From Eledone cirrhosa (Eukaryota), in contig OZ024744.1 of the NCBI GenBank assembly GCA_964016885.1, positions 95,108,001 to 95,172,000 of the forward strand: a stretch of DNA of 64,000 nt, in the 5' to 3' direction. Within the stretch, counting starts at the first letter, position 1. Each line of letters opens with the position of its first letter. Positions 20,208 to 64,000 of the stretch are shown in pieces. Below the pieces are notes generated by a model. It did no database searches, was not told where the DNA came from, and saw only the letters and a list, made by a program, of their open reading frames with translations. Position numbers and translations under genes: made by a program.

Positions 20208-20760
20208 CTGAGTGTTTATGTATGTGGTGTATGGTTGTGTTTATGTATGTGTGAGCGTGGCTGTGTGTTTATGTACGTGTCTGTGTGAGTATCGTTGCAT
20301 GTTTATGTACGTGTGTGGCTGAGTGTTTATGTACGTGTGGGTGTGGCTGTGTGTTTATCTACGCGTATGTGTCAATGTGTGTGTGTGTGTGTGTGTCGAT
20401 GTGTTTATGTACGCGTCAGTATGTATATGTGTACGTGCGCGTGTATACGAGTTTCATCGAACTTATCTGTCCGTGTTTGGTTTAATCAATTTCATTATTA
20501 ATAACATCCACAGGGGCGGTGGATTGGCAGTATCGGTGGCGGGTCGGACGCCATGCTTTGTGGCACAGAGTTACGGCCCTTTACGGCCTGAGTTCAAATC
20601 CCGCCGAGGTTAACTTTGCCTTTAATCCTTACCAGGTCGATAAAATAAAGCACCAGTAATGCACTGGGGGTGTCAATTCAATCGACTTTCCCCTCGCCTT
20701 CAAATTACTGGCCTTGTGCCTATACTAGAAATCATTATTAATAACTGTTGATAATCATTA

Positions 20761-21570
20761 TTAATAACGGGGTCGATAAAATAAAGTACCAGTAATGCAC
20801 TGGGTAATTTGCTGGCCTTGTGCCTAAAGCAGAAACAATTATTAATAACGGGGTCGATAAAATAAAGTACCAGTAATGCACTGGGTAATTTGCTGGCCTT
20901 GTGCCTAAAGTAGAAACAATTATTAATAACGGGGTCGATAAAATAAAGTACCAGTAATGCACTGGGTAATTTGCTGGCCTTGTGCCTAAAGTAGAAACAA
21001 TTATTAATAACGGGGTCGATAAAATAAAGTACCAGTAATGCACTGGGTAATTTGCTGGCCTTGTGCCTAAAGTAGAAACAATTATTAATAACGGGGTCGA
21101 TAAAATAAAGTACCAGTAATGCACTGGGTAATTTGCTGGCCTTGTGCCTAAAGTAGAAACAATTATTAATAACGGGGTCGATAAAATAAAGTACCAGTAA
21201 TGCACTGGGTAATTTGCTGGCCTTGTGCCTAAAGTAGAAACAATTATTAATAACGGGGTCGATAAAATAAAGTACCAGTAATGCACTGGGTAATTTGCTG
21301 GCCTTGTGCCTAAAGTAGAAACAATTATTAATAACGGGGTCGATAAAATAAAGTACCAGTAATGCACTGGGTAATTTGCTGGCCTTGTGCCTAAAGTAGA
21401 AACAATTATTAATAACGGGGTCGATAAAATAAAGTACCAGTAATGCACTGGGTAATTTGCTGGCCTTGTGCCTAAAGTAGAAACAATTATTAATAACGGG
21501 GTCGATAAAATAAAGTACCAGTAATGCACTGGGTAATTTGCTGGCCTTGTGCCTAAAGTAGAAACAATTA
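20761..21570 (+). repeat. Ten tandem 81-bp copies of the SINE1 3' half
   Basis: Unit ttaataacggggtcgataaaataaagtaccag...gtagaaacaatta, nearly invariant; flanked by a plus-strand and a minus-strand SINE1. Confidence 0.95.
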
Positions 21571-22088
21571 TTAATAACTGTTTCTACTTTTTGGCACAAG
21601 GCCAGCAAATTACCCAGATAAAATAAAGTACCATTACTGGTACTTTATTTTATCGACCCCCCCCCCCCCCCCCGTAATGATGAAAGGCAAAGTTAACCTC
21701 GGCGGGATTTGAACTCAGAACGCAAAGGGCCGTAACTCTATGCTGCAAAGCATGGTGTCTGACGCTCTACCGATTACTGCCAATCCACCGATCCGCTACT
21801 TTGGATTAGCAGAGCTTGGCTCTGATAGAGCAACAACATCAACAGAAGCAGTAACAACAGTAACAATAACTAATATTAATACTAATATTAATATTAACAT
21901 TAACAACTTCTTTCTACAACTCAGTAGCCAGTCAGTCCTTTGATTATATAAATATATATTAAATATCAGCATATTATTAGTTGTAGGGAGGAGGGTGAGC
22001 GGGGGGGGGGGGGGCACGACTCCACCACCACTTGTGGTATGTGATTGAATGTCCAGGTCTTCTCGTCGACCTTTTTTAAAAAATGATT

Positions 22089-22905: not shown

Positions 22906-23319
22906 TTATATTATATATATATTTATATATATACAGAGAGAGGGAGAGAGATACATGCATGCGTACATACATACATACATGCATACAGACAACCCAGTAA
23001 AAATATATAAAACATTCCAAAAATGTTGCATCTAATAACTGCATATACACATGTACAAATACAAAGCATATACACATGCACACATACAACTCGAAACATC
23101 CACATCCACACATACAATAACATCCATATCTACACACCCATGCATGCATACATATCTACCTAGTTGATGTTGTGTAAATTCCAATGAGAGAGTCTTGTGT
23201 CTATGTTAGAAACCGACTCTCTCTCTCTCTATTGGGAAACAATTTGTGAAATTATAAAACCAGAGGAATATACATACATATATGCATACATACATACACA
23301 CATACATATATAAATAGAG

Positions 23320-24110
23320 GGGATAAACCACTCAAAAAGCCTGGCATGTAGTTCCGACAAGTTTATGACATCACACCTTGAGGGATATCTCTATGCAAAT
23401 ATCTGCTGCACAAAAGAGGAGGGCCATCAGCTGACAATAAATGTAGGCTATGTAAAACAAAGATCGAGGATGTAAGCCACATTGTTGCCAGCTGCGAAAG
23501 AATGTCATCTCGCTACTACCTCCCCATGAGACACGATGGGATAGCTAGAACCATCTGGAACGCACTTCGGAAAACAAAATTAACAACAAACGAGGAAGAA
23601 TATATTGAGACAGATGGCACTAAGGAATACTGGTGGAACCTGAAAATAAAAACTGCCACCAAATTAAAGCACAACCGGCCTGATATTGTTGTTTGAGACC
23701 ACACATTGAAAACGGGTTCTGTTGTGGAGATCAGCTGCCCACTTGTGGTAAACGTTGTCAGAAAAATACAGAAGGAGGACATCTACGGACCATTGATGAG
23801 GAGTTTACAAATCCAGTATCCAAGATACACCTTTAGCTTCATACCCGTCATTATTGGAGCTACGGGTTATATACCAACCCGCTTGGACCAAAGTATGACT
23901 GAACTTGGATTTGCGGACAAAAAGCGCAGCTCCCTAATTCATAGTCTACAAATGGTTGCGATAGCTGGCACCTTCAAAATTTGCAAAACATTCTTGCGAT
24001 TCAAGGGATGACAATTTCTTTTCTTTTACAACCTTGCCACCAGGAAGGTGGCCGGTCAAAAAAAATATACTCGAAATTAAGAGAAAGAGATAATACATAC
24101 ATACATACAC
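23320..24110 (+). mobile_element. 3' fragment of an R4/Dong-like (REL endonuclease) LINE
   Basis: CRLC..EDVSHIVASC zinc knuckle, RHD, RPDI and VEISCP motifs, with in-frame stops. Confidence 0.8.
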
Positions 24111-24184
24111 ATATACATAGACACACACACATACATACATAGATAGATATTCTATCGGGGGTATCTTACTGACCTCTACCAACA

Positions 24185-26464
24185 AGTTCTTAAGGGAGAT
24201 ACACTTATACCAGAATGGTTGACACTAGCACAAACATTACTGGTCCCCAAGAACAAAAACACCCACTTGGCAAAAAAAAAAACTAGCGACCCATTGCATG
24301 CCAGAACCTGATGTACAAGATGTATACAGCCTGCCTGAACCTATTCCTCCAAGATCACTGTGAAAATAATATCATCACAGATGAACAAGCAGCTGGAAAG
24401 AAAGGGGTTCGGGGATGTGCTGAACAACTCCTAATCAACAAAACTGCGATGTCGGAGGTGCGACAACTTAGGAGGAATATGACTACAGTCTGGCTGGACT
24501 ACAGGAAAGCTTTCGATTCTGTTCCCCACTCTTGGATGATAGAGGCCCTCCAACTTGCTAAAGACCCAGACATTATTGTCAGAGCCATAGAGAGGCTGTC
24601 TTCTTCTTGGGCTACTATCCTACAGAGAGGGGGGGGGGACTCTATTTTCACTGATAAAATAAAATATTGCAGGGGTATATTTCAGGGGACAGTCTCTGTG
24701 ATATTATTCATCTTGTCATTAAACCCCTTGTCCTTTCTGCTCAAGAAATGTGAGGGATACATCATTGGCTCACAGGAGGACAGAAATACGAACCTAACCC
24801 ATAATTTCTTTGTGGACGATCTGAAACTATGCCAAGAACATGGATGGGATGAGGGAAAATCTTGACCTGGTTACAACGTTCTCAAAGGCTATAGGAATGG
24901 AGTTTGGCCATGATAAATGCTCAAACATGACTGTAAAGCGGGGAAAAACAACCCAATCTAGCAACAATGTCATCAATGGCCTAACTGTTTCACCGATATC
25001 TGATGAGGGCTGCTACAGATACCTGGGGATAGATGAGAACATATCCTATAATGGTATCTGTAATAAAGAACGCGTTACCAGGAATAATACACCCGATTAA
25101 GAAAGATCTGGTTATCGGAACTCTCTGCGCAAAACAAAACAGTGTCTCACAATGTGTTTGCTGTGCCTGTCTTAACACCAACGTTTGGAATACTCAATTG
25201 GACGATAGACGAAATCCGAGCAGTTGATATTGGAACTCGAAAAATACTGAACAACACCGGAAACTTCCACATCAACAGTGACATAGACCGCCTTTACTTG
25301 AAACGTAAGCAGAGAGGCAGGGAGGCCTAACATCAGTCCAGACACCATTTGAATGTCGCTCTCCAACAACATCTACGAACCTCGAAGCGTAGGAGCCCGT
25401 TTTTCGAGCAAGTCTATCTGCATGAAACAGATAAGATCATGAGAGTTGGGAAGGAACTCCTCGAGAGATATTCCCTGTGTGATAATCAAAAACTCACACC
25501 CAGGAATGTCACTCAGCAGTATCGCAGTGATTCCATGGATGAAAAACTGCATACCTATCAGCAAGACATCATGCATGGATATGTTGCCAGGAAACTCCAG
25601 AGTGAGAGTAATATAGATAAGGAAAGTAGTCTATCTTGGACCAACAACCGCTATATTGGCTCCCACTTTGAAGGATACACGTTTGCAATCCAGGAACAGG
25701 AGATTAACACGAAATACCTGAAAAGAGATATGGATGCAGGCAAAACACCTAGATGTGATAACAAGTGCAGACTCTGCAGAACTAACATCGAGGATATCAC
25801 CCATGTCTTCAGCAGCTGTCCAAAGATGTCATCGCGGTACTATTTACCTATAAGGCATGATGTAGTGGCAAAAACACTGTACAATGCAGTTCGTAAAAAA
25901 GATAGCCCCGATAATAAACACATTAAACGCTACAGCAATGTGGAAAACATCCACGTACATAATATGAAAGAGTACTGGTGGAATGTTCCAGTAAAAACCC
26001 AAATAAAATGCAGGCATAACAGACCAGGTATTATGATATGGGACAGGGAGAAGAAAACATGCACAGTAGTGGAAATTAGCTGCCCAGCAGATGCCAATAT
26101 AATATCAAAGATTAGCGAAAAGGAGAATATTTATGCAGAGCTGATGAGAAATCTGCGGATACTCCACTCTGATTACACCTTCAGATTTATGTCTGTGATT
26201 ATTGGGGCACTGGGGTATGTTAGTAACTGCCTCAATACAAATATTGAGAAGCTAGGATTCACAGGAACAGAAAGAACACAACTAGTTAGGAAATTACATG
26301 TACAATCCATTAATGGAACAGTAAACATATGTAAAACATTCCAAAAATTTTGCATCTAATAACTGCATATGTTCATGTACAGATGCAAAGCATATACACA
26401 TGCACACATACAACTCACAACATACAAATCCACACATACAATAACATCCATATCTACACATGCA
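24185..26464 (+). mobile_element. 5'-truncated R4/Dong-like LINE (RT + CCHC + REL); its 3' UTR resumes at 29415-29540
   Basis: RT motifs WLDYRKAFDSVPH, RGIFQG, FVDDLKL; C-terminal CRLC..H...C, RHD, VEISCP; frameshifted. The 3' UTR matches the uninterrupted copy at ~23000-23270. Confidence 0.9.
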
Positions 26465-29414
26465 TGTTTAGTGTAATTGGCCATAGGGTTATTTACTCCA
26501 ATAAATACCACTACATGCCAACCACTAATTTAATTTGTTTAGAAGATGTAAAAGAAATGACGATGTAGTAATTGAAACATGACAAATACTTCGGAAAAGT
26601 GTATCAGTAACGATTTGCATTTATTGAAGTAGCTTGTTACAATTTTGGTAGTGAAACGTACATCGTGCCATGATGTGGTGTAATCCTGAGGTATAGGATA
26701 GGATTAGAAAAGGTTTAGCATCTGTGCTTGGTGTGGTCAGTTCTAGAGCCGTTGGGGAAAGAGAGTGTATACCTTTGGCGTAACCATGCCTGGCCTTAAG
26801 GTCAGGAGGCCAAGAGGTGAAAAGAGGTAGATTGTCCTTTGCTCCTTCTTTTATAATCTTTGAAACAGAAGTTCAAGGAGTAATCTAGAAATTCTACGGG
26901 AAGTAACTTTGGCTACTTCCCTTTGTCTAGAGAGCGCTACAAGACTCCCCTCTCAGACGAGAAGTCGAATAACCAGCCGAAGGTCATTGTAGCGTGAACC
27001 CGTAAGAAATGAGGAGCAAAGGTACAAGAAGGTGCATGAATAAAACATAAGCTCGCAACTGAAGCAAATAGCAAAACAAAAACACAAAACAAGTAAATGC
27101 ATTTGACAAAGAAAAAATGTAAATGTAACAAAACTGATAATTCAAAGTTAACAAAGGATCAGAGAAAAATTAATGCTCAATTGTAAGTTCAAAGTTTCTT
27201 AAAAAAAATAGTTTATACATCACTAGTGTGAAAAGGCTGGAAAATAGCACATCAATCAAAAAAATGAATGAATGAATGAATGCAAGAAGAAAATTATGAA
27301 TGAGGCGCTAAGGGGCCAGTGTTATGTATGCCGCTGTGTCAAATGACTGGCTGTTTGCTATTTATAACATGACCACCCAGGGTCTAATAGAAAACAAATA
27401 AAGTCTGACATGGGCGAAAATGTGCAAAATGTTTTCAAAGTTGCTGTTCTTGCATTAATTGTTATAAAAGTTGTTGTTGTTGGTGGCGGTAAAAGTATGA
27501 AACTACCACTTCTGTTATGTTGCTGTGAAATCGCCGTTGGTGTTGTGGCTGTAGTTGTTGTGGTAAATGTTTTACCAGTAGCTGTTGTTGATGATGATGT
27601 TGTTCATGTCCAACGATTCCAAGGTAGGTTGATCAGTTGCAATGGTAACTAAATCGATATGTGCAGGAGATAGTGCGTCCGCAGGTATGTTGGAAGTCCC
27701 AGCTATGTGACGAATGTCATTGGTATACTGTGAGATGAGATCCAGATGCCTATACGCTCTCGGAGAGTACTTGTCAGACTTGGATTGTAAAGCGAACGTT
27801 AACGGTTTGTGGTCCGTGAATATCGTGAACTCCCGCCCCTCCAAAAAGTGGTGGAAGTGCTTCACGGCAAGATAAATCGTCAAAAGTTCTCTGTGAAAGG
27901 TGCTGAATCTCTGTTCTGCTGGTTTTAATTGGTGAGAGAAAAATGCCAATGGTTGAACTTGGTGATCGATTACATGATGCAAAATTGCGCCAACAGCACG
28001 ATCAGATGCATCAACAGATAAGGAAAGCCTCGCATTTGCAACAGGATGGGCAAGGAAGGAAACTTTAGCTAGCTCAGACTTGACGGATTTAAAAGACTGC
28101 AATGCATCGGCAGAAAGTGAAATTTTTTCATCTTTCTTTTTTGCAGCCCTTAAAAACTGTATCAAAGGGAATAACTTGCCCGCACAGTTATATAAAGCGA
28201 CGATAAAAGTTAATTAATCCTTAAAAATGGCGTAATTGTTTCAAGGATGTTAGTGGTGTTAATTGCTGATTCGCCTCTACTCTAGCTGGCAATCTGGAAC
28301 AGGTGGTCTGGGTGAGTCCAGTAGAGATAAAGCAGATAATATTTCCTTCAGAAGATAATAAGTTTATTTTAAGTAGCTGACCGCAGAACGAACGTGCATA
28401 AAAAGGCCCAGCAAGTGACGTCAATTTACGACACAAGGTGTCGCAATTTTTTTACTGGCATTAATAAAATAGCTCGTGACCGAACTATTCTTTGAGATGA
28501 ATAGCAATGAGTGTGTTGGTAAAATCTACCGCGCGGGAAAATGACGAAACGAAGAAGACAAGATGGCTGCTCGAAAATGAAAGAGCAAGGCAGCAGTCGC
28601 CATATTGGTTGTTGGTCTTAAACAAAAGCTTGGTTGAACGAGAAAGACACGAGGTGTAATTTTCAGAAAAAGAAATATCATGTTAAAAAATGAAAGAGTC
28701 CAATTTAATGAATGGTTCGTAGTAAGATGTAGCGAAAGTATAAGCAGCCAAGTTAGAAGCATTTAAAACGTTGTCACCACGTGAGGTGGGAATAGAAATT
28801 TTTTTTTTTTTTAAATTTTCTTCATTCTTCGGTTGGTGTTATTTTACTTTAGGTGTTATTTTACGTTCGGGTCATCATTTTAGTAGTTGGTGTTACACTC
28901 CGTCAGGCTCACCATTTTAGTGTTGCTCGGTGTCACCATTTTAGTGTAATTAGCCATAGGGTTATTTACTCCAGTAAATACCACTACATGCCAACCACTA
29001 ATTTAATTTGTTTAGAAGATGTAAAAGAAGTGACGATGTAGTAATTGAAACATGACAAATACTTCGGAAAAGTGTATCAATAACGATTTGCATTTATTGA
29101 AGTAGCTTGTTACAATTTTGGTAGTGAAACGTACATCGTGCCATGATGTGGTGTAATCCTGAGGTATAGGATAGGACTAGAAAAGGTTTAGCATCTGTGC
29201 TTGGTGTGGTCAGTTCTAGAGCCGTTGGTGAAAGAGAGTATACCTTTTGGCGTAACCATGCCTGGCCTTAAGGACAGGCAGCCAAGAGGTAAAGAAGAGG
29301 TAGATTGTCCTTTGCTCCTTCTTTTATAATCTCTGAAACGGAAGTTCAAGGGGTATCCTAGAAATTCTACGGGAAGTAACGTTGGCTACTTCTCTTTGTC
29401 TAGAGAGCGCTACA
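26465..29414 (-). mobile_element. Internally deleted Ty3/gypsy LTR retrotransposon (LTRs 26465-26941 and 28939-29414)
   Basis: Two similar ~476-bp LTRs; TG...CA ends; CATGCA direct repeat on both sides; polypurine tract GAGAGGGGAG next to the 3' LTR; RNase H ORF 27572-28165 (VDASDRAVGA, RELL, FTDHKPL, NIPADALS). Confidence 0.9.
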
Positions 29415-29625
29415 CATGCATACATATCTACCTAGTTGATGTGTAAATTCCAATGAGAGAGTCTTGTGTCTATGCTAGAAACCGACTCTCTCTCTCTCTC
29501 TATTGGTAAAACTTTGTGAAATTATAAAACCAGAAGAACATACATACATACATACATACATACATACATACATACAGACAGACAGACAGACAGAGAAAGA
29601 GCCGGGGGGAGAGATAGATAGATAG

Positions 29626-32600
29626 ATATGTTTCTTTATTAGCCACAAAAGAAGGGGACAAATACAAAGGGGGAAGTTTACATACAATAAAAATGTGTAA
29701 AATATTATCACAAATGCAATTGAAAAGTTAATCGATTTTCTCCAATAGGGGGAGACATTTCATATGGGTAACACATACCCCCGAAAAAATGTGCAACCCT
29801 CATCTCCAGGAGTACGAAGAGGTTGCACCCCTTTCCTCTCTTCCTCCTTTTCCTCAACCTGCAGGCTGATATAGAGAGGCCCATTCACTCGGGCCAATCT
29901 CGCCACTTTCACCCACCTTTCATAAAATTTGCTGGGGTACAGCACCTCTCTCTCCATCCTGATTCTTCTTCCAAAGTGGTATTTGAAAAAAAGAATCAGT
30001 TGTTGGCCGGAGAGAAAGGTGTCTGACCTCAGCCTTTTTAACCTCGTCCACCATACAACCTCTTTCGCCATAGCTATCACACAAAGGAAAACCGCCTCTC
30101 CTTCGTTTTTAAAGGAAGGTGGCGGTTTGATCATGACAATGGACTCGGTGGTCAACCGGATTGGTCCCACCCGCGACAATAGTCGTTCTACATAGCCCCA
30201 CAAGTCGGTAACGCCCGGGCAGTGTAAGAATGCGTGCGCGACGGTTTCTTCGTCTTGCACGCATCTCGGACAGATCTTTTTCGAAGGGTCCCTGTCCGGG
30301 CGCCCATGTCTGTAGAGCTTGTCTCGAACTGGTAGAGCTCCTCGGTAGCACTGCCAGGCCAGGGACTTTTGGAAGTTGTCCATCGGTCCTGGACGGAAGG
30401 TCCTACCGAACAGACTGGCCAATTTGTCTTCCTCTACACCCAGAGCTTCTCCGAGCGCGTCGTCGCACTTGCTGCAGATCAACCCTCTATAGAATGACGA
30501 AGTGGAGTCTCTACAGATCGCCGGGTCCGTCTGCCGGAGGGCTGTGAGCGCCTGAGCACATTCGATGTGCCAGTCGCCCATTTTCCTCGGTCTTTGCTTG
30601 ACCCAGGACTGCAGCTCGGTCAGCGTGACGAAGAGAGGCCGCAGCCTGAGCGCGTGTTTTCGCATCGTCAGCCACGGCATCCCCAGCCCTCCGTTGGAAG
30701 GGTGTTGGCAGCAGATGGATCTTCTCACCAAAGGAGCCCGTTTGGTTTGCCTCTCCACGATCCGAGTTGCAAACCGATGGACTTGTCCCGGTTCAGCTTC
30801 GCTCCTGTGAACCTTTCGTATTCCTTCAGTAAGGTACCAACTTTCTCGATTTGCGAGGTGCTCGACACCATCACTGTCACGTCGTCGGCGTAGGCCGACG
30901 CCGCTTTCTGCAGTCCCGGTTCCAGAGGGATGCCCTGCAATAGCTCCAACTTCCGCAGTAGTGGCTCGAGCGTCAGTACTTACAGAAGGGAGGAGAGAGG
31001 GCATCCCTGTCGAATGGATCGCGTGATATGGAACGGCTGTGAGAGGTAGCCGTTCACCTTGAGCAGATGTTGCTGTTGTTCATTGCAGCAATCCAGCCCC
31101 TGAACACGGGTCCGAAGTCTGCCGCCTCGAGCACCGCATCCAGGTAACGATGGTCAACCCTATCGAAAGCCTTAGACTGGTCCAAGTTGATCAGGGCTCC
31201 ACCGAAGCCGGGTTTACACCCTACCCTCTCTATGATGTATCGCATGAGGTGGAGGTTGTTGTGTATGGACCTGGTGGGGATTGCGCATGTCTGCGCTTCT
31301 CCCACCAGGTTTTCGACGACAAGCGCCAGCCTCTTTGCCAACACCTTGGCCAAAATCTGTAACTCTGTATTTAGCAGAGTTATGGGCCGGAAGTTGCCTA
31401 TGTCATCCCCCTTATTCTCGTCCTTCCTGACTAGTGTGACTACGCCCCTGGTCACAGAACTGGGAATTCCCCCGTTCTGCTGCCAGTTGCAGTAGATCGC
31501 TCCCAGGAGACCGGAGAACAAGTCCGGCATTGCTACGTAAAATTCGTAGGGTAGACCTGGAGATTTGCGTTTGCCGCATTGGCTCAGCGCGTCCCCTATC
31601 TCAGCGGCTGAAATCGGCTTTTCGCAGAACTTCGCCTCGCTGTCCGAGAGTCGCGGTAGGCCGTCGAGGTTTGGACCGAAATCCATATCCCCTCCCGGCG
31701 CGCCGCCCTGCCCGAACAGCTGAGCAAAGTGCCGCTGAAAGGCCGCGCACATCTGCTTCGGCTCACGTATCACGCATCCGTCTTAATCCTTCAAAGACCG
31801 AATCGTGGACTTGTTGCCATTTTTTGCCTCCGTCACCCGGGCCCAGCTAACAGCTTTGGCTCCCTCGTTACCCAGAGCACGTAAATAGGACCGAGAAGGA
31901 ACTGATAGATAAAGTAGAAGTGGCAACGCAGCCCTCGTGCTTTGCGTCGAAGAACTGGCCCAAGGCCGTTGTCGTTGCTAGCACGCTGGCTACGTTGCCA
32001 CTTCTAATTGCCTCTTCTACTTCATCTATCAGTTCCTTCTCGGTCCTATTTCTATTTAACGCTAATTCTTTACTAAAAACTAACGAGTCTAATCTAACTT
32101 CCCTCTTGAGAGAGTACCACCATCTGTTGTTGACAATGGCTCCTGTTTAACTAAAGTGCTAATCCGTCTACTGTAGGCTTTGCATGTCGGTAACGACAAG
32201 TTCAGCTTCCAGTAGCCGAGTCCTTGTCTATGGGTTCTAACAAGGTTTACCATGCAGGTCACTAGTTTGTGATCTGAATAGGCAACCATGAACATTTGTG
32301 GACAGCTTAACATGTTCCTGTCTTTATTTTTAACTAGAACCCTATCTAGATACGATCTAGATGTTCCGCTGAGATTAGTGCACGTCCACAGTGACACAGT
32401 TGGTGGTTGTGTGTTTGTTGCCTTTTTGTTCGTGTTATGTTTTTTTTCTTTTTTTTTTGGAGCGGAGGGGTTCTCCCTCATCACTGAGTGATGACGAAGG
32501 GGCTTCGTCCGTTGTGGTGTCTGTTTGATTGGGGAGGGGTACGTTTTGGGGAGCTGTTGTGCTTGTGGGTGTTTTGGGAGTTTAGGTGGGGGGGGGGGGA

Positions 32601-39120: not shown

Positions 39121-39379
39121 AGTGTTTGATATTCTCTGAGTCTCTGAGAAATATTTGTAATTTTAAGGTCAGTAACTAAATAAGGCTTTAATCTGGCTTT
39201 AAAGAGGACTTGTGGTATTTAGCATTCAGTTTCTGCAATATTCATAGTTTATATTAAACATTCATTTATGACTTTCCTTAAATAAACACATCTTCAAAAC
39301 AACAGATCACTCCTTTCATGTCTCAAATAGTGTGAATTCCAAAAGATAGTGATTATTTTACCATGACATTGACCACTGT

Positions 39380-41772
39380 TGTGTAGTGCTAAATCTAATA
39401 CTATGTAGTTCTAAATCTAATATTGTGTAGTTCTAAATCTAATATTGTGTAGTTCTAAATCTAATACTGTGTAGTTCTAAATCTAATATTGAGTAGTTCT
39501 AAATCTAATACTGTGTAGTTCTAAATCTAATATTGTGTAGTTCTAAATCTAATATTGTGTAGTTCTAAATCTAATATTGTGTAGTTCTAAATCTAATACT
39601 GTGTAGTTCTAAATCTAATATTGTGTAGTTCTAAATATAATTGTTTCTATTTTTGGCACAAGGCCAGCAATTACCCAGTACATTACCAGTACTTTATTTT
39701 ATCGACCCCGTAAGGATGAAAAGCAAAGTTAACCGAGGCAGGATTTGAACTCAGACCGTAAAGGGGCGTAACTCTATGCTTCAAAGCATGGAGTCTGACT
39801 CTCAAACCGATCTGTGTAGTTCTAAATCTAATATTGTGTAGTTCTAAATCTAATACTGTGTAGTTCTAAATATAATACTGTGTAGTTCTAAATCTAATAC
39901 TGTGTAGTTCTAAATCTAATACTGTGTAGTTCTAAATCTAATGTGCAGTTCTAAATCTAATATTGTGTACTTCTAAATCTAATACTGTGTAGTTCTAAAT
40001 CTAATACTGTGTAGTTCTAAGTCTAATACTGTGTAGTTCTAAATCTAATACTGTGTAGTTCTAAATCTAATACTGTGTAGTTCTAAATCTAATACTGTGT
40101 GGTTCTAAATCTAATACTGTGCAGTTCTAAATCTAATACTGTGTAGTTCTAAATCTAATACTGTGTAGTTCTAAATCTAATATTGTGTAGTTCTAAATCT
40201 AATATTGTGTAGTTCTAAATCTAATACTGTGTAGTTCTAAGTCTAATATTGTGTAGTTCTAAGTCTAATACTGTGTAGTTCTAAATCTAATATTGTGTAG
40301 TTCTAAATCTAATACTGTGTAGTTCTAAATCTAATACTGTGTAGTTCTAAGTCTAATACTGTGTAGTTCTAAATCTAATACTGTGTAGTTCTAAATCTAA
40401 TACTGTGTAGTTCTAAATCTAATACTGTGTAATTCTTAATCTAATATTGTGTAGTTCTAAATCTAATACTGTGTAGTTCTAAATCTAATATTGTGTAGTT
40501 CTAAATCTAATATTGTGTAGTTCTAAATCTAATACTGTGTAGTTCTAAATCTAATACTGTGTAGTTCTAAATCTAATATTGTGTAGTTCTAAATCTAATA
40601 CTGTGTAGTTCTAAATCTAATATTGTGTAGCTCTAAATCTAATACTGTGTAGTTCTAAATCTAATACTGTGTAGTCCTAAATCTAATACTGTGTAGTGCT
40701 AAATCTAATACTGTGTAGTTCTAAATCTAATACTGTGTAGTCCTAAATCTAATATTGTGTAGTTATAATTCTAATATTGTGTAGTTCTAAATCTAATACT
40801 GTGTAGTCCTAAATCTAATATTGTGTAGTTCTAAATCTAATACTGTGTAGTTCTAAATCTAATACTGTGTAGTCCTAAATCTAATATTGTGTAGTGCTAA
40901 ATCTAATACTGTGTAGTTCTAAATCTAATACTGTGTAGTCCTAAATCTAATATTGTGTAGTTATAATTCTAATATTGTGTAGTTCTAAATCTAATACTGT
41001 GTAGTTCTAAATCTAATACTGTGTAGTTCTAAATCTAATACTGTGTAGTCCTAAATCTAATATTGTGTAGTTATAATTCTAATATTGTGTAGTTCTAAAT
41101 CTAATACTGTGTAGTCCTAAATCTAATATTGTGTAGTGCTAAATCTAATACTGTGTAGTTCTAAATCTAATACTGTGTAGTCCTAAATCTAATATTGTGT
41201 AGTTATAATTCTAATATTGTGTAGTTCTAAATCTAATACTGTGTAGTTCTAAATCTAATATTGTGTAGTTCTAAATCTAATACTGTATAGTTCTAAATCT
41301 AATACTGTATAGTTCTAAATCTAATATTGTGTAGTTCTAAATCTAATACTGTGTAGTTGTAAATCTAATACTGTGTAGTTCTAAATCTAATACTGTGTAG
41401 TTCTAAATCTAATACTGTGTAGTTCTAAATCTAATATTGTGTAGTTCTAAATCTAATATTGTGTAGTTCTAAATCTAATATTGTGTAGTTCTAAATCTAA
41501 TATTGTGTAGTTCTAAATCTAATACTGTGTAGTTGTAAATCTAATACTGTATAGTGCTAAATCTAATACTGTGTAGTTCTAAATCTAATACTGTGTAGTT
41601 CTAAATCTATTACTGTGTAGTTCTAAATCTAATACTGTGTAGTTCTAAATCTAATATTGTGTAGTTCTAAATCTAATATTGTGTAGTTCTAAATCTATTA
41701 CTGTGTAGTTCTAAATCTAATACTGTGTAGTTCTTAATCTAATACTGTGTAGTTATAAATCTAATACTGTGC
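39380..41772. repeat. 22-bp satellite, ~100 copies, interrupted by a SINE1 at ~39640-39812
   Basis: Unit tgtgtagttctaaatctaata(c/t). Confidence 0.97.
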
Positions 41773-60699: not shown

Positions 60700-61310
60700 A
60701 TCGTGTACGTTGAGAGTAGTTTCCCCTTGTCATGCCAGCTTTGTCACGTGACCGTATGTTGTTAGGGCTGTTGTTGGTGACAACTTCTCCAGCAGTATCG
60801 CCGCAATCTTGGCCGTCGCCATCATGTTTGTTAAACTACTACACGGACAACTAACTCGTCGAACGACTCCGTTTCTATGTGGAGCCCGACGAAATTAACA
60901 GACAGATCAGATCAGAACCGTCAAAAATGTTCAAACTGCTTCACTGCGATGTATCTTCATGCCAGTTTCGAAAAGAATCAGAGCTTCGGTTGTTAGCTGC
61001 AAGAAGGGACATCGTTCAGTACAGCATTAGTTCGATGCCCCAACTGCGTTTTGTTGTTGACGTTAGCAACGCTACTGAATTTCCGTTACACGGTTGCTTT
61101 GGCTTTTCATGACATCATAGCACGAAATAATGGAATAACAAGGAATCTTCATGAAAATATATATATTTTTTTCAAATACAATTAAGGTATATTTATAATT
61201 TAAGCTGGCATTTAAAAAAAAAAAAAAAAATTTATTTGTGGCAATGAGTGGTTGCCGTAGCCGCGACTTTTGTTATTGTTGTTTTTGTCACGGTTGCCAT
61301 CCGACTGTCT
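60700..61310 (+). promoter_or_regulatory. Putative TOGARAM1 promoter/5' UTR with RFX X-box-like sites and an E-box palindrome
   Basis: CpG-richer, repeat-free segment. GTCACGTGAC at 60743-60752; GTTGAC-GTT-AGCAAC at 61056-61070; GTTGCC half-sites near 61251 and 61293. Confidence 0.55.
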
Positions 61311-61410
61311 TGGCTGTGACGTCCATTTGTTGATCCTTCTTCCTTTGATAGCCGACTTGTGTTATAGTGGTGTTATTTATTTGAAGTTCGGTGTTCATGT
61401 ACCCCACACG

Positions 61411-62862
61411 ATGACGAACATGGAACAAGACGAAGTTTTAGATCACTTAACTGATCAGAGTTCGATTAAGAAATTGGAAACTGTAAAGCGGTTACATTTG
61501 ACAGTTAAACGAAATGGAGGTCGATTACCTTGGGAAGATTCGTGGACAATTTTCAGAGGCCTGGATGTTGTTTTGTTAGATGATGCTCCGGAGGTGAGAG
61601 CGAAATGTCTTCAGTTAATTAGAGATTTAATACCTCAGTTAGGATCAAACATTGACTCTTGCATGCTTTTGATCTTAAAAAATTTAATTCTAGTTTTAGG
61701 TGATCCTAATGTTCTTGTTCGCCGATGTTCGAGAGAAGCAATGCATTTATATATGAAATACACAAACAACTTTGATAAATTGTCGAATGATATTGTACTT
61801 TACGGACTAGAAAATAGCAACAATCGTATTAAAAAAGAGTGTGTCTTAGCTTTACCTATTCTTTTCTCTAAAGATCTAAGTAATCACAACGTTTTCCCGT
61901 ATGTACAGTCTCTTGCGAAAATAGTCTTTAAGAGTAACGATCAAACCGATGATGATAATGTACATGAGATGGCAATGCTTGCCCTAAAGAAAATGTCTGA
62001 ATTTATTGGCTCCATCAAATTCAAATCTCACTTGCAAAAACTCCCAGAAAATATTAGATTGTCATACATAAGAGAATTACACCCTGAAGATAGGGATTTT
62101 TATTCTGAGTTGAATGATTCTCTGGAATATCCTCTGATGCAGCCAATTTTCCACAAGACTGGACCATCCAACCACCAACACCAATACCCATTCCAAATTC
62201 CTCACCCTTACAATTCAAACTATCGAGATGGTCAACAATCAGAAATGTTTGGTGTTTTTCCGCAGCAAATTATTGCTCAAATATTGCGACTTGAAGATGG
62301 ATATAGGCTGAGAGCGCCGGCTGTTGAACAGTTAAGAGCAATTCTTTCAAGACAAGAAATCGATAAGATGAGTACTCCAGATATGTTATCCTTCATTAGT
62401 TTTGTAGATGAATTACTTGATGATCCCAACTTTAAAATAACAACTATTGCACTTGAGATTTTACGTATTCTTGTGGTAAAACTTGAGCAAGAGTCTGAAC
62501 ATTTCCTGAAGCCTCTTGTATCAACTCTGGCTAGCCGACTGGGCAATAACAAGATTGTCATTAGGCAAGGCATTATGAGAGTGACCAAACAACTGATGCA
62601 CAATGCCACACCTAAGCTTGTACTGAGGGAGATGCTTGACAACCTGCGCCATAAAACCTCCCGAGTACGGCATGAAATGGTTAATATCTTAATTGCAGCT
62701 CTGCTAACGTTTCCAAGTTATGAATTTGATTTGTATGCATTGTGTAAGGAGATTGTACCCCTATTGACGGACACAAAACGAAATGTAAGGCGTGCTGCAT
62801 TAGAATGTGTTGCGGTTATTGCACAGGCAATGGGACAAGAAAGACTCCAACCTTTGTTTAAG
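61411..62862 (+). CDS. TOGARAM1: First coding exon (484 codons) of TOG array regulator of axonemal microtubules (Crescerin/FAM179B/CHE-12 family), covering TOG1 and most of TOG2
   Basis: HEAT/TOG repeats. The segment LLDDPNFKI...NNKIVIRQ...LRHKTSRVRHEMVNILIAALLTFPSYEFDL...LTDTKRNVRRAALE closely resembles vertebrate TOGARAM1 TOG2 as I recall it. ATG at 61411; phase-0 donor AAG|GTATGT after 62862. The gene continues beyond the window. Confidence 0.9.
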
Positions 62863-64000
62863 GTATGTATATGTGTGTGCGTGTATATATATATATATAT
62901 ATAAATGAATTATCATTGCCATAGAATAAGTTATTATTGTGTGTTATATAATGTACTTCATAAAAAAAGAATATATATATGTATTTGATTCATTGACTCT
63001 CTAAAACCTTTGAATTCAAACTAGTACTCTAATTGGATGATTTGATTTTAACATAGCTTCAACATTCCCAAAAGACACTGTGACATTCCTGTTAAAGTCT
63101 AATATATACAAATTATAAATCAGTATTTAACCCTTTAGCATTTACATTACTCTATATATGCTATTGTATTTTTTGCGGTAAAGGCTTTATCTCACATAAT
63201 ATTGAATCTATGAGATTTTGATATTATTTATTTGGGAACAATACCTTAACGTCAGTATGAGTGGCTGGTTACGGCCAGTTTGAACAGAAAGAGGTAAGAG
63301 AATTTTGGCTGGACACAGCTGGTTTAAATGCTAAAAGGGTTGGTTGTTTTTTTTTTTTCAGGCTTTGTCAAATTAATTTTATTGCATAAAGGAAAAACTG
63401 TGGTTACATGTTTTTGGCAACAATATTCATCAGATAAGGAGGGAATAAACGAAGAGAGTTTATGAAATAGTAAGATCGTTAAATACAAAAGTTTCACTAT
63501 CTTATCAAAAAATTAAAAAAATGCAAACAAACAAGTATTTGAAGTAAAAGTACTTCAACAATACCAGCTTTGCAATCTACTGTCCCTTATTTTGTCAAAA
63601 AATTATGAACCAGTTAAATATATTCTGTAAACTGGTAGTGCTGGTGCCACAATAAAATGCACCCTGCACATGTTGTAAAGTGGTGAGGCTTGTGCCATGA
63701 TAAAATCTATCCTGTGCACACTGTAAAGTGGTAGTGCTGGTGACACAACAAAAAGAACCCAGTCCACCCAATATGGAGGTAGTGCTGGAGTCGTGATAAA
63801 AATCTCCCAGTACATGCTGTAAAGTAGTTGGTGTTTGGAAGGACACCCAGTCACAGAAAACCAAATCAAAATTGAAACGTAGGAGCAGGAGATGGTCAGC
63901 TGTCTAGTCTAGTCACAGAATGTAACAACCCATCTGATCTATGCAAGCATGGAAAAGAGACATTTTTGGTGGTGGTGGTGATGGTGATGATAATGATTTT

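What the first reader, a model, noticed from the sequence alone, without database searches (positions are those of the whole stretch)
28769..28945. Repeat-spacer array of different primer-binding sites behind a gypsy 5' LTR
Seen on the minus strand directly after the LTR end: ACTAAAA-TGGTGACACCGAGC (28938-28925), ACTAAAA-TGGTGAGCCTGACGGAG (28914-28898), ACTAAAA-TGATGACCCGAACGT (28877-28863), plus a fourth TGGTGACAACG (28779-28769). The constant repeat matches the LTR terminus; the spacers differ but start TGG/TGA like complements of tRNA 3' ends. From memory the second resembles a tRNA-Arg PBS and the third a tRNA-Trp PBS. Established: LTR elements normally have a single PBS. Inference: the element accumulated alternative tRNA primers in a polar array, possibly by repeated capture at the LTR end. 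Novelty needs a literature check.
Basis: partly seen in the sequence, partly recalled or inferred. Interest (0 to 1): 0.8.

Follow-up and report, generated by a model that had tools for sequence, protein, structure and literature searches.

The report
Tandem primer sites move LTR ends
A family of jumping genes carries one to five tandem copies of the site where one host tRNA (tryptophan) starts their copying, and paired element ends indicate that inner copies were likely used as well, which moves the spare outer sites into the element's terminal repeats.

Summary
The array is real and family-wide, but the sites are not for different tRNAs. The element is a 2.9-kb internally deleted CsRn1-like gypsy copy (LTRs 95.6% alike, 4-bp target duplication). 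All 101 of 101 PBS-like segments from sibling copies pair best with host tRNA-Trp among the 21 host 3' ends held (a partial set). The window's 'different spacers' differ by 1-2 letters from sibling units. Each unit is a duplication of the LTR-end/PBS junction, and copies hold 1-5 sites. In 4 of 11 array elements with both ends readable, the 3' LTR itself ends with one or two PBS units before the target duplication; a second, unrelated LTR family shows the same in 3 of 4. So inner sites likely prime reverse transcription and outer sites become part of both LTRs. One copy starts with a perfect 18-nt tRNA copy plus LTR end, suggesting units can be made from the primer. Precedents: HIV-1 partial PBS duplication, dual-PBS viruses and vectors. 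Nine literature searches found no such natural retrotransposon array. This scan noted tandem PBS modules on other DNA (e1-8067993, e1-7216805).

The parts
29415..29418 (-). 5' copy of the 4-bp target-site duplication (CATG)
   Evidence: the two flanks match one contiguous paralogous empty site at 23143/23142
28940..29414 (-). 5' LTR, 475 bp, begins TGTAG, ends CACTAAA (not CA)
   Evidence: 95.6% identical to 26467-26941
28916..28938 (-). Unit 1 (type A): tRNA-Trp PBS (11 of 12 matching) + short tail + LTR-end repeat; the site likely used when this copy was made, since the 3' LTR lacks units
   Evidence: 22 of 23 identical to sibling units
28879..28914 (-). Unit 2 (type B): tRNA-Trp PBS with one wobble and one private substitution + about 20 nt of leader + LTR-end repeat
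   Evidence: 34 of 36 identical to sibling B units; G at position 7 in 1 of 20 B units
28863..28877 (-). Site 3 (type C): innermost tRNA-Trp-derived PBS running on into the leader; decayed (TGA start)
28769..28785 (-). Fourth motif: part of a conserved leader motif (CTCACGTGGTGAC) with no LTR-end repeat before it; not an array unit
   Evidence: present in array-subfamily leaders; paralogous copies differ right after TGGTGAC
27572..28213 (-). Remnant reading frame with a gypsy RNase H domain; the element is internally deleted and non-autonomous
   Evidence: Pfam RT_RNaseH_2 7e-27
26945..26954 (-). Polypurine tract
   Evidence: the same tract precedes 3' LTRs across the family
26467..26941 (-). 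3' LTR, ends at the first CACTAAA, no PBS unit
26463..26466 (-). 3' copy of the target-site duplication (CATG)

Best explanation
The array is a variable tandem set of LTR-end + tRNA-Trp primer-binding-site units shared by many copies of a CsRn1-like gypsy family, likely made by slips during reverse transcription, and any site preceded by an LTR end likely can prime. Shown: every unit is PBS + 0-20 nt + a repeat of the LTR terminus + one base; unit number is 1-5; in several elements the 3' LTR carries the outer unit(s) up to the target duplication. Inferred: when tRNA-Trp primes at an inner site, minus-strand strong-stop DNA includes the outer units, so both LTRs inherit them and integrase cuts at the inner LTR-end repeat. 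When the outer site primes, as in this window's copy, the LTR stays short and the array rides along inside. Inferred with less support: new units arise when the tRNA-copied 3' end of plus-strand strong-stop DNA, or a few leader bases beyond it, slips back onto the LTR terminus by microhomology. Arrays then grow or shrink by misaligned strand transfer or later slippage, and absorbed units decay into new LTR ends.
For: Single tRNA: host tRNA-Trp(CCA) arrays end in the complement of the PBS (45 genes with the common end); 101 of 101 segments best match Trp. Family-wide: 12 of 39 LTR-anchored 5' LTRs with a PBS have 2 or more sites (one of the 12 entered through a unit-anchored search). Inner priming: 3' LTR + unit(s) + target duplication in L062 (ATGG), L078 (ATAT), L196 (CTTC) and L190 (AGTG, offset by a shortened A run), against 7 elements ending at the first LTR end (window, L063, L064, L070, L198, L072, L153). 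The 5' and 3' copies of a unit share rare letters (L062, L196, L276), as expected if both came from one template. Second LTR family with no blastn match to this LTR: unit inside the 3' LTR with exact target duplication in L274, L276, L279, outer end in L278; inner PBS is a perfect 18-nt tRNA copy in L326. Primer-templated unit: L130/L192 first unit is a perfect 18-nt tRNA-Trp copy followed directly by the LTR-end repeat. 13 of 20 A units are perfect over 12 nt, 0 of 20 B and 0 of 18 C. tRNA read-through of 24-42 nt at single PBS sites (L061, L201, L265) shows that primer sequence is written into the element. The L062 3' junction flank appears as a loose end in a short-read contig (X2), so it is not only an assembly feature.
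Against: No cDNA, RNA or priming data; no RNA run was listed. In L062, L078 and L196 the inner site inferred to prime keeps its mismatch to tRNA-Trp, so it was not corrected by the primer. L190 has more units in its 3' LTR (2) than its 5' side predicts (1), so post-insertion slippage or a more complex transfer occurs. Solo LTRs with units (L014, L011, L089, L327) could also come from microhomology deletion between an inner repeat and the 3' LTR end. Primer-templated creation of a unit rests on one clear copy. The host tRNA set tested is partial. Run X2 may be the sample behind the assembly.
Confidence: 0.75

Rival explanations
1. The array is an ordinary minisatellite-like DNA slippage product. 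Only the first site ever primes, and 3'/solo LTRs with units come from later recombination or deletion, for example from tandem dimers.
For: Tandem elements exist (L212, L178); the genome is rich in slippage repeats; L190's asymmetry and the window's local 17-nt leader duplication show slippage.
Against: Seven full elements in two LTR families have units inside the 3' LTR ending at the LTR-end repeat, six with an exact target duplication directly behind; each would need two rare events. A perfect 18-nt tRNA copy that differs from the element's own PBS (L130, L326) is hard to obtain by DNA slippage.
Confidence: 0.17
2. One reading: the element collected primer sites for different tRNAs (Trp, Arg, Leu) and can use them.
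For: Unit 2 pairs with one host tRNA-Arg(ACG) variant for 11 contiguous pairs, energy equal to Trp. Motif 4 matches a tRNA-Leu(AAG) gene over 11 nt. A G at the same position is also seen in one rearranged C-type site (L232).
Against: The Arg-like letter is in 1 of 73 array units, and unit 2 lacks the other Arg-specific letters that a primer copy would carry. That Arg end is 1 of 4 Arg(ACG) genes in the stretch read. The Leu gene is a single degenerate copy (1 hit). Motif 4 has no LTR end before it, and no LTR among the 135 catalogued extends to it. Window units diverge from siblings at the background rate of about 3.4-5%.
Confidence: 0.04
3. The extra sites are kept by selection as spare or decoy sites, for example against PBS-targeting 3' tRNA fragments or to recruit more primer.
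For: Arrays recur on several LTR sub-lineages (13 changes on a tree of 113 LTR ends, shuffled mean 17.9) and in a second LTR family, where units have become fixed in LTRs.
Against: Most copies have one site (27 of 39); inner and absorbed sites decay; nothing here measures fitness or small RNAs. This adds a function to the main explanation rather than replacing it.
Confidence: 0.15

Closest known systems
CsRn1 clade of Ty3/gypsy LTR retrotransposons (PwRn1, AgCR; PMC2582038, passages read)
   Same: tRNA-Trp PBS, 4-bp target duplication, Gag CX2HX9CX3C motif in sibling copies, RT-RNase H-integrase order; LTR end fits the CsRN1 3' motif MSYYAMA at 6 of 7 positions (PMC3601003, Table 3 passage)
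   Different: The passages read describe a single PBS, with no tandem sites or shifting LTR end. The PBS/LTR-end alignment in PwRn1 Additional file 1 (an image) was not seen.
HIV-1 MAL-type 23-nt insertion downstream of the PBS (PMC3185550, PMC11181671; passages read)
   Same: Natural partial duplication of the PBS, found in 14-22% of isolates
   Different: Partial and single; no repeated LTR end, and not described in those passages as priming or moving the LTR boundary
Dual-PBS HIV-1 isolate (Li et al. 1997) and two-PBS vectors with dual initiation (Voronin and Pathak 2004); titles seen in reference lists only
   Same: Two PBS in one leader; by title, initiation at either site
   Different: Laboratory-evolved or engineered retroviruses; here a natural, variable array with its own integrase end per unit, recorded in genomic copies
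Drosophila Gypsy second tRNA-Lys2 site at the genome 3' end (PMC1635307; abstract read)
   Same: An extra binding site for the same primer tRNA
   Different: One distant site that is dispensable for cDNA synthesis; not a tandem junction duplication

Membership tests
Ty3/gypsy LTR retrotransposon | Paired LTRs, PBS, polypurine tract, target duplication | tested here: met
Ty3/gypsy LTR retrotransposon | RT-RNase H-integrase order | tested here: met
   sibling L061 with the same LTR; the window copy keeps only RNase H
CsRn1 clade | tRNA-Trp PBS | tested here: met
CsRn1 clade | 4-bp target-site duplication | tested here: met
   22 solo LTRs with exact 4-bp match; 11 of 18 paired elements exact
CsRn1 clade | Gag CX2HX9CX3C motif | tested here: met
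   found in siblings L067, L153, L201, L193; gag is deleted from the window copy
CsRn1 clade | Placement by RT phylogeny with reference members | not tested
   no reference sequences were held
   101 of 101 best match Trp among 21 host ends; the set is partial
Functional multi-PBS leader (dual initiation) | Inner site used, seen as outer units inside both LTRs | tested here: met
   4 of 11 and 3 of 4 elements
Functional multi-PBS leader (dual initiation) | Direct mapping of strong-stop cDNA to inner sites | not testable with these tools
   no cDNA or RNA run listed

The most novel reading that the evidence does not exclude
Reverse transcription writes copies of its own primer tRNA into new, fully usable LTR-end + PBS modules. 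This accretion repeatedly builds new LTR 3' ends in these families, and spare modules are free to drift towards other tRNAs (window unit 2 already pairs as well with a tRNA-Arg variant), which would give retroelements a low-cost route to primer switching.
Probability: 0.2. Interest if true: 0.75.

Novelty: new variant of a known kind. Interest (0 to 1): 0.55.

Why it matters
LTR elements are modelled with one PBS and a fixed LTR boundary. Here genomic copies record alternative priming in a natural family, because each element's 3' LTR shows which site was likely used. This gives a sequence-only readout of primer-site choice and strand-transfer errors. It offers a mechanism for how LTR 3' ends change and why some LTRs contain copies of their own primer site. 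It also warns that LTR-boundary and PBS calls can be shifted by one or more units.

Tried and rejected
Rfam tRNA search of the genome scored only 63 of about 552,000 candidates and gave Thr and SINE-like hits, so no full host tRNA set was obtained. The first duplex test compared only Trp and Arg because the Thr extraction failed; it was repeated with 21 ends. Pattern search for tRNAs fitting units 1 and 4: 191 hits, of which 20 were scanned and 1 was a tRNA-like gene; the rest look like SINE variants (label recalled). One Trp-array gene variant matches window unit 1 over 12 nt and seven match the L014 unit; single substitutions, not taken as evidence. No RNA holder listed. Reads laid on the array showed no joints within it and were uninformative on array variation. 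Array elements left out of the 4-of-11 count: L065 (end in a microsatellite), L073, L074, L192 (3' LTR truncated), L071, L194, L195, L199, L077 (no 3' LTR in the stretch held), L121 (3' LTR with 2 units, 5' LTR not found within 9.5 kb), L212 (middle LTR of a tandem), L017 (ambiguous). Left out of 3-of-4: L277 (3' end disrupted), L275, L280 (no 3' LTR found); four near-identical L276 copies counted once. Earlier-findings look-ups by sequence and by place returned nothing. Literature searches found no natural tandem-PBS retrotransposon; the 'two PBS' passage in PMC3212995 refers to different copies. PMC400373 was not held. The library lacks most subscription journals and Repbase notes.

Full report
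Observation. A self-comparison shows two 475-bp LTRs, 29414-28940 and 26941-26467, 95.6% identical, whose flanks join to one empty paralogous site at 23143/23142. The target duplication is CATG and a polypurine tract precedes the 3' LTR. The LTR ends in CACTAAA, not CA, so the array's constant repeat is the LTR terminus. The 2-kb interior keeps only an RNase H remnant. The genome is 3.0 Gb; an octopus-like host is my guess from repeat content and comes from no call.

Family. Siblings with the same LTR carry RT-RNase H then integrase and a Gag CX2HX9CX3C motif. With the Trp PBS and 4-bp duplications these are the CsRn1-clade features named in PMC2582038 (passages). The LTR end fits the CsRN1 motif in PMC3601003 at 6 of 7 positions (passage). 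No RT phylogeny was run.

Which tRNA. Host tRNA-Trp(CCA) genes lie in arrays on C4 and their 3' end is the complement of the family PBS. I catalogued 135 LTRs from the loci held, with 101 PBS-like segments. All 101 pair best with Trp among 21 distinct host tRNA or tRNA-like 3' ends; this set covers only Trp, Arg-ACG, Ser-GCT, Thr, Leu-AAG and SINE-like ends. Window units 1 and 2 are 22/23 and 34/36 identical to sibling units, in line with the 3.4-5% divergence of the neighbouring leader. Against: the deciding G is in 1 of 73 array units and 1 of 20 B units; that Arg end is 1 of 4 Arg genes read; the Leu gene is one degenerate copy; motif 4 sits in a conserved leader motif whose paralogues diverge straight after TGGTGAC, and it has no LTR end before it.

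Anatomy across copies. Units are of a few types: A (12 nt of Trp complement + short tail + LTR end), B and B2 (PBS + about 20 nt of leader + LTR end) and the terminal C site. Copies hold 1-5 sites. In the LTR-anchored sample 12 of 39 5' LTRs with a PBS have 2 or more, one of the 12 having come in through a unit-anchored search. Arrays occur on several LTR sub-lineages (13 label changes on a tree of 113 LTR ends, shuffled mean 17.9, bootstrap not settled).

Inner sites were likely used. In L062, L078, L196 and L190 the 3' LTR continues through one or two PBS units and ends at the LTR-end repeat, followed by the same 4 bases that precede the 5' LTR (exact in three, offset by a shortened A run in L190). 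Seven others (window, L063, L064, L070, L198, L072, L153) end at the first LTR end, giving 4 of 11; the omitted rows are listed under Tried and rejected. Among LTR-anchored right-hand ends, 5 of 71 carry units (3 of 43 3' LTRs, 2 of 28 solos). Rare letters are shared by the 5' and 3' copy of a unit in L062, L196 and L276. A second LTR family, with no blastn match to this LTR but sharing the internal region, shows the same: unit inside the 3' LTR with exact duplication in L274, L276 and L279, outer end in L278. In 30 of 59 further hits examined, L326 has a perfect 18-nt tRNA copy at the inner site, L327 is a solo with a unit, and L336, L342 and L351-L353 carry two decayed PBS-like motifs in what appears to be the LTR end. 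By established retroviral mechanism, everything between the cap and the priming site is copied into both LTRs, so these ends are what inner priming predicts.

How units arise (inferred). L130/L192 begins with exactly 18 nt of tRNA-Trp complement, the usual length copied into plus-strand strong-stop DNA (recalled), unlike its own B and C sites, followed directly by the LTR-end repeat. A units are tRNA-perfect in 13 of 20, B in 0 of 20 and C in 0 of 18, and the A tail equals the LTR end of one sub-lineage (L078, L121). B units break at a CCAAC stretch that also lies near the LTR end of a sub-lineage. Single-PBS copies show 24-42 nt of tRNA read-through. I therefore favour slips of the plus-strand 3' end back onto the LTR terminus, then growth and loss by misaligned transfer or slippage. 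Against: inner sites inferred to prime in L062, L078 and L196 were not corrected to the tRNA; L190's two ends disagree; solos with units could be microhomology deletions; there are no cDNA data.

Comparison and novelty. Closest cases: the HIV-1 MAL 23-nt partial PBS duplication (PMC3185550, PMC11181671; passages), dual-PBS HIV and vectors (titles only), and Gypsy's second tRNA-Lys2 site (PMC1635307; abstract). PMC12471100 (passages) reports primer changes by PBS substitution among Saci2 families, each with one site in the passages read. Nine full-text searches found no natural tandem array with a moving LTR end; the library is incomplete, and an image supplement of PMC2582038 was not seen. Earlier scan notes report tandem PBS modules and a tRNA-Trp copy inside an LTR on other DNA; I did not check them, except to read the abstract of the paper one of them names.

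Verdict. A real, family-wide feature: one primer tRNA, tandem junction units, likely alternative priming that shifts the LTR boundary. New variant of a known kind; interest 0.55.

Noticed in passing
L061:1336-1380, L265, L257, L201: PBS extended by 24 to more than 40 nt of tRNA-Trp complement, reaching towards the anticodon arm: read-through of the primer past the usual stop. A separate family (L047-L057) has about 24-30 nt of tRNA-Trp complement as its standing PBS.
   Followed up: partly
L190 LTR end: A B2 unit is fused into the U5 end of both LTRs through a short shared stretch, so the LTR terminus itself derives from a PBS unit.
   Followed up: partly
L336, L342, L351-L353: A subfamily of the second LTR family appears to carry two decayed PBS-like motifs fixed in its LTR end; many hits have the same pattern.
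   Followed up: partly
G000:C4:353.38-353.50 Mb and C4:277.40-277.45 Mb (L059, L060, L305-L320): Tandem arrays of more than 60 tRNA-Trp genes whose acceptor stem is poorly paired (5' GGCCCTG or similar against 3' CGGGGTC), with several 3'-end variants.
   Followed up: partly
L321 (G000:C4:297.80 Mb): Alternating tRNA-Ser(GCT) and tRNA-Arg(ACG) genes on opposite strands with a repeat of about 2.1 kb.
   Followed up: no
window 20757-21578: Ten near-identical (99.8%) 81-bp tandem copies of a SINE fragment, giving long spurious open frames.
   Followed up: no
window 23307-26318 and 29760-31782: Non-LTR (LINE-like) RT fragments with zf-RVT on both sides of the element, in opposite orientation; the element's two flanks are duplicated at 22995-23306.
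   Followed up: no
window 61261-62904 (+): 547-aa open frame with TOG/HEAT (CLASP/CEP104-like) matches, probably a large host exon.
   Followed up: no
window 39223-41500 approx.: Long 22-bp minisatellite.
   Followed up: no
L033-L043: Dispersed near-identical tRNA-like genes with varying anticodons and unpaired acceptor ends, probably a tRNA-derived SINE head.
   Followed up: no
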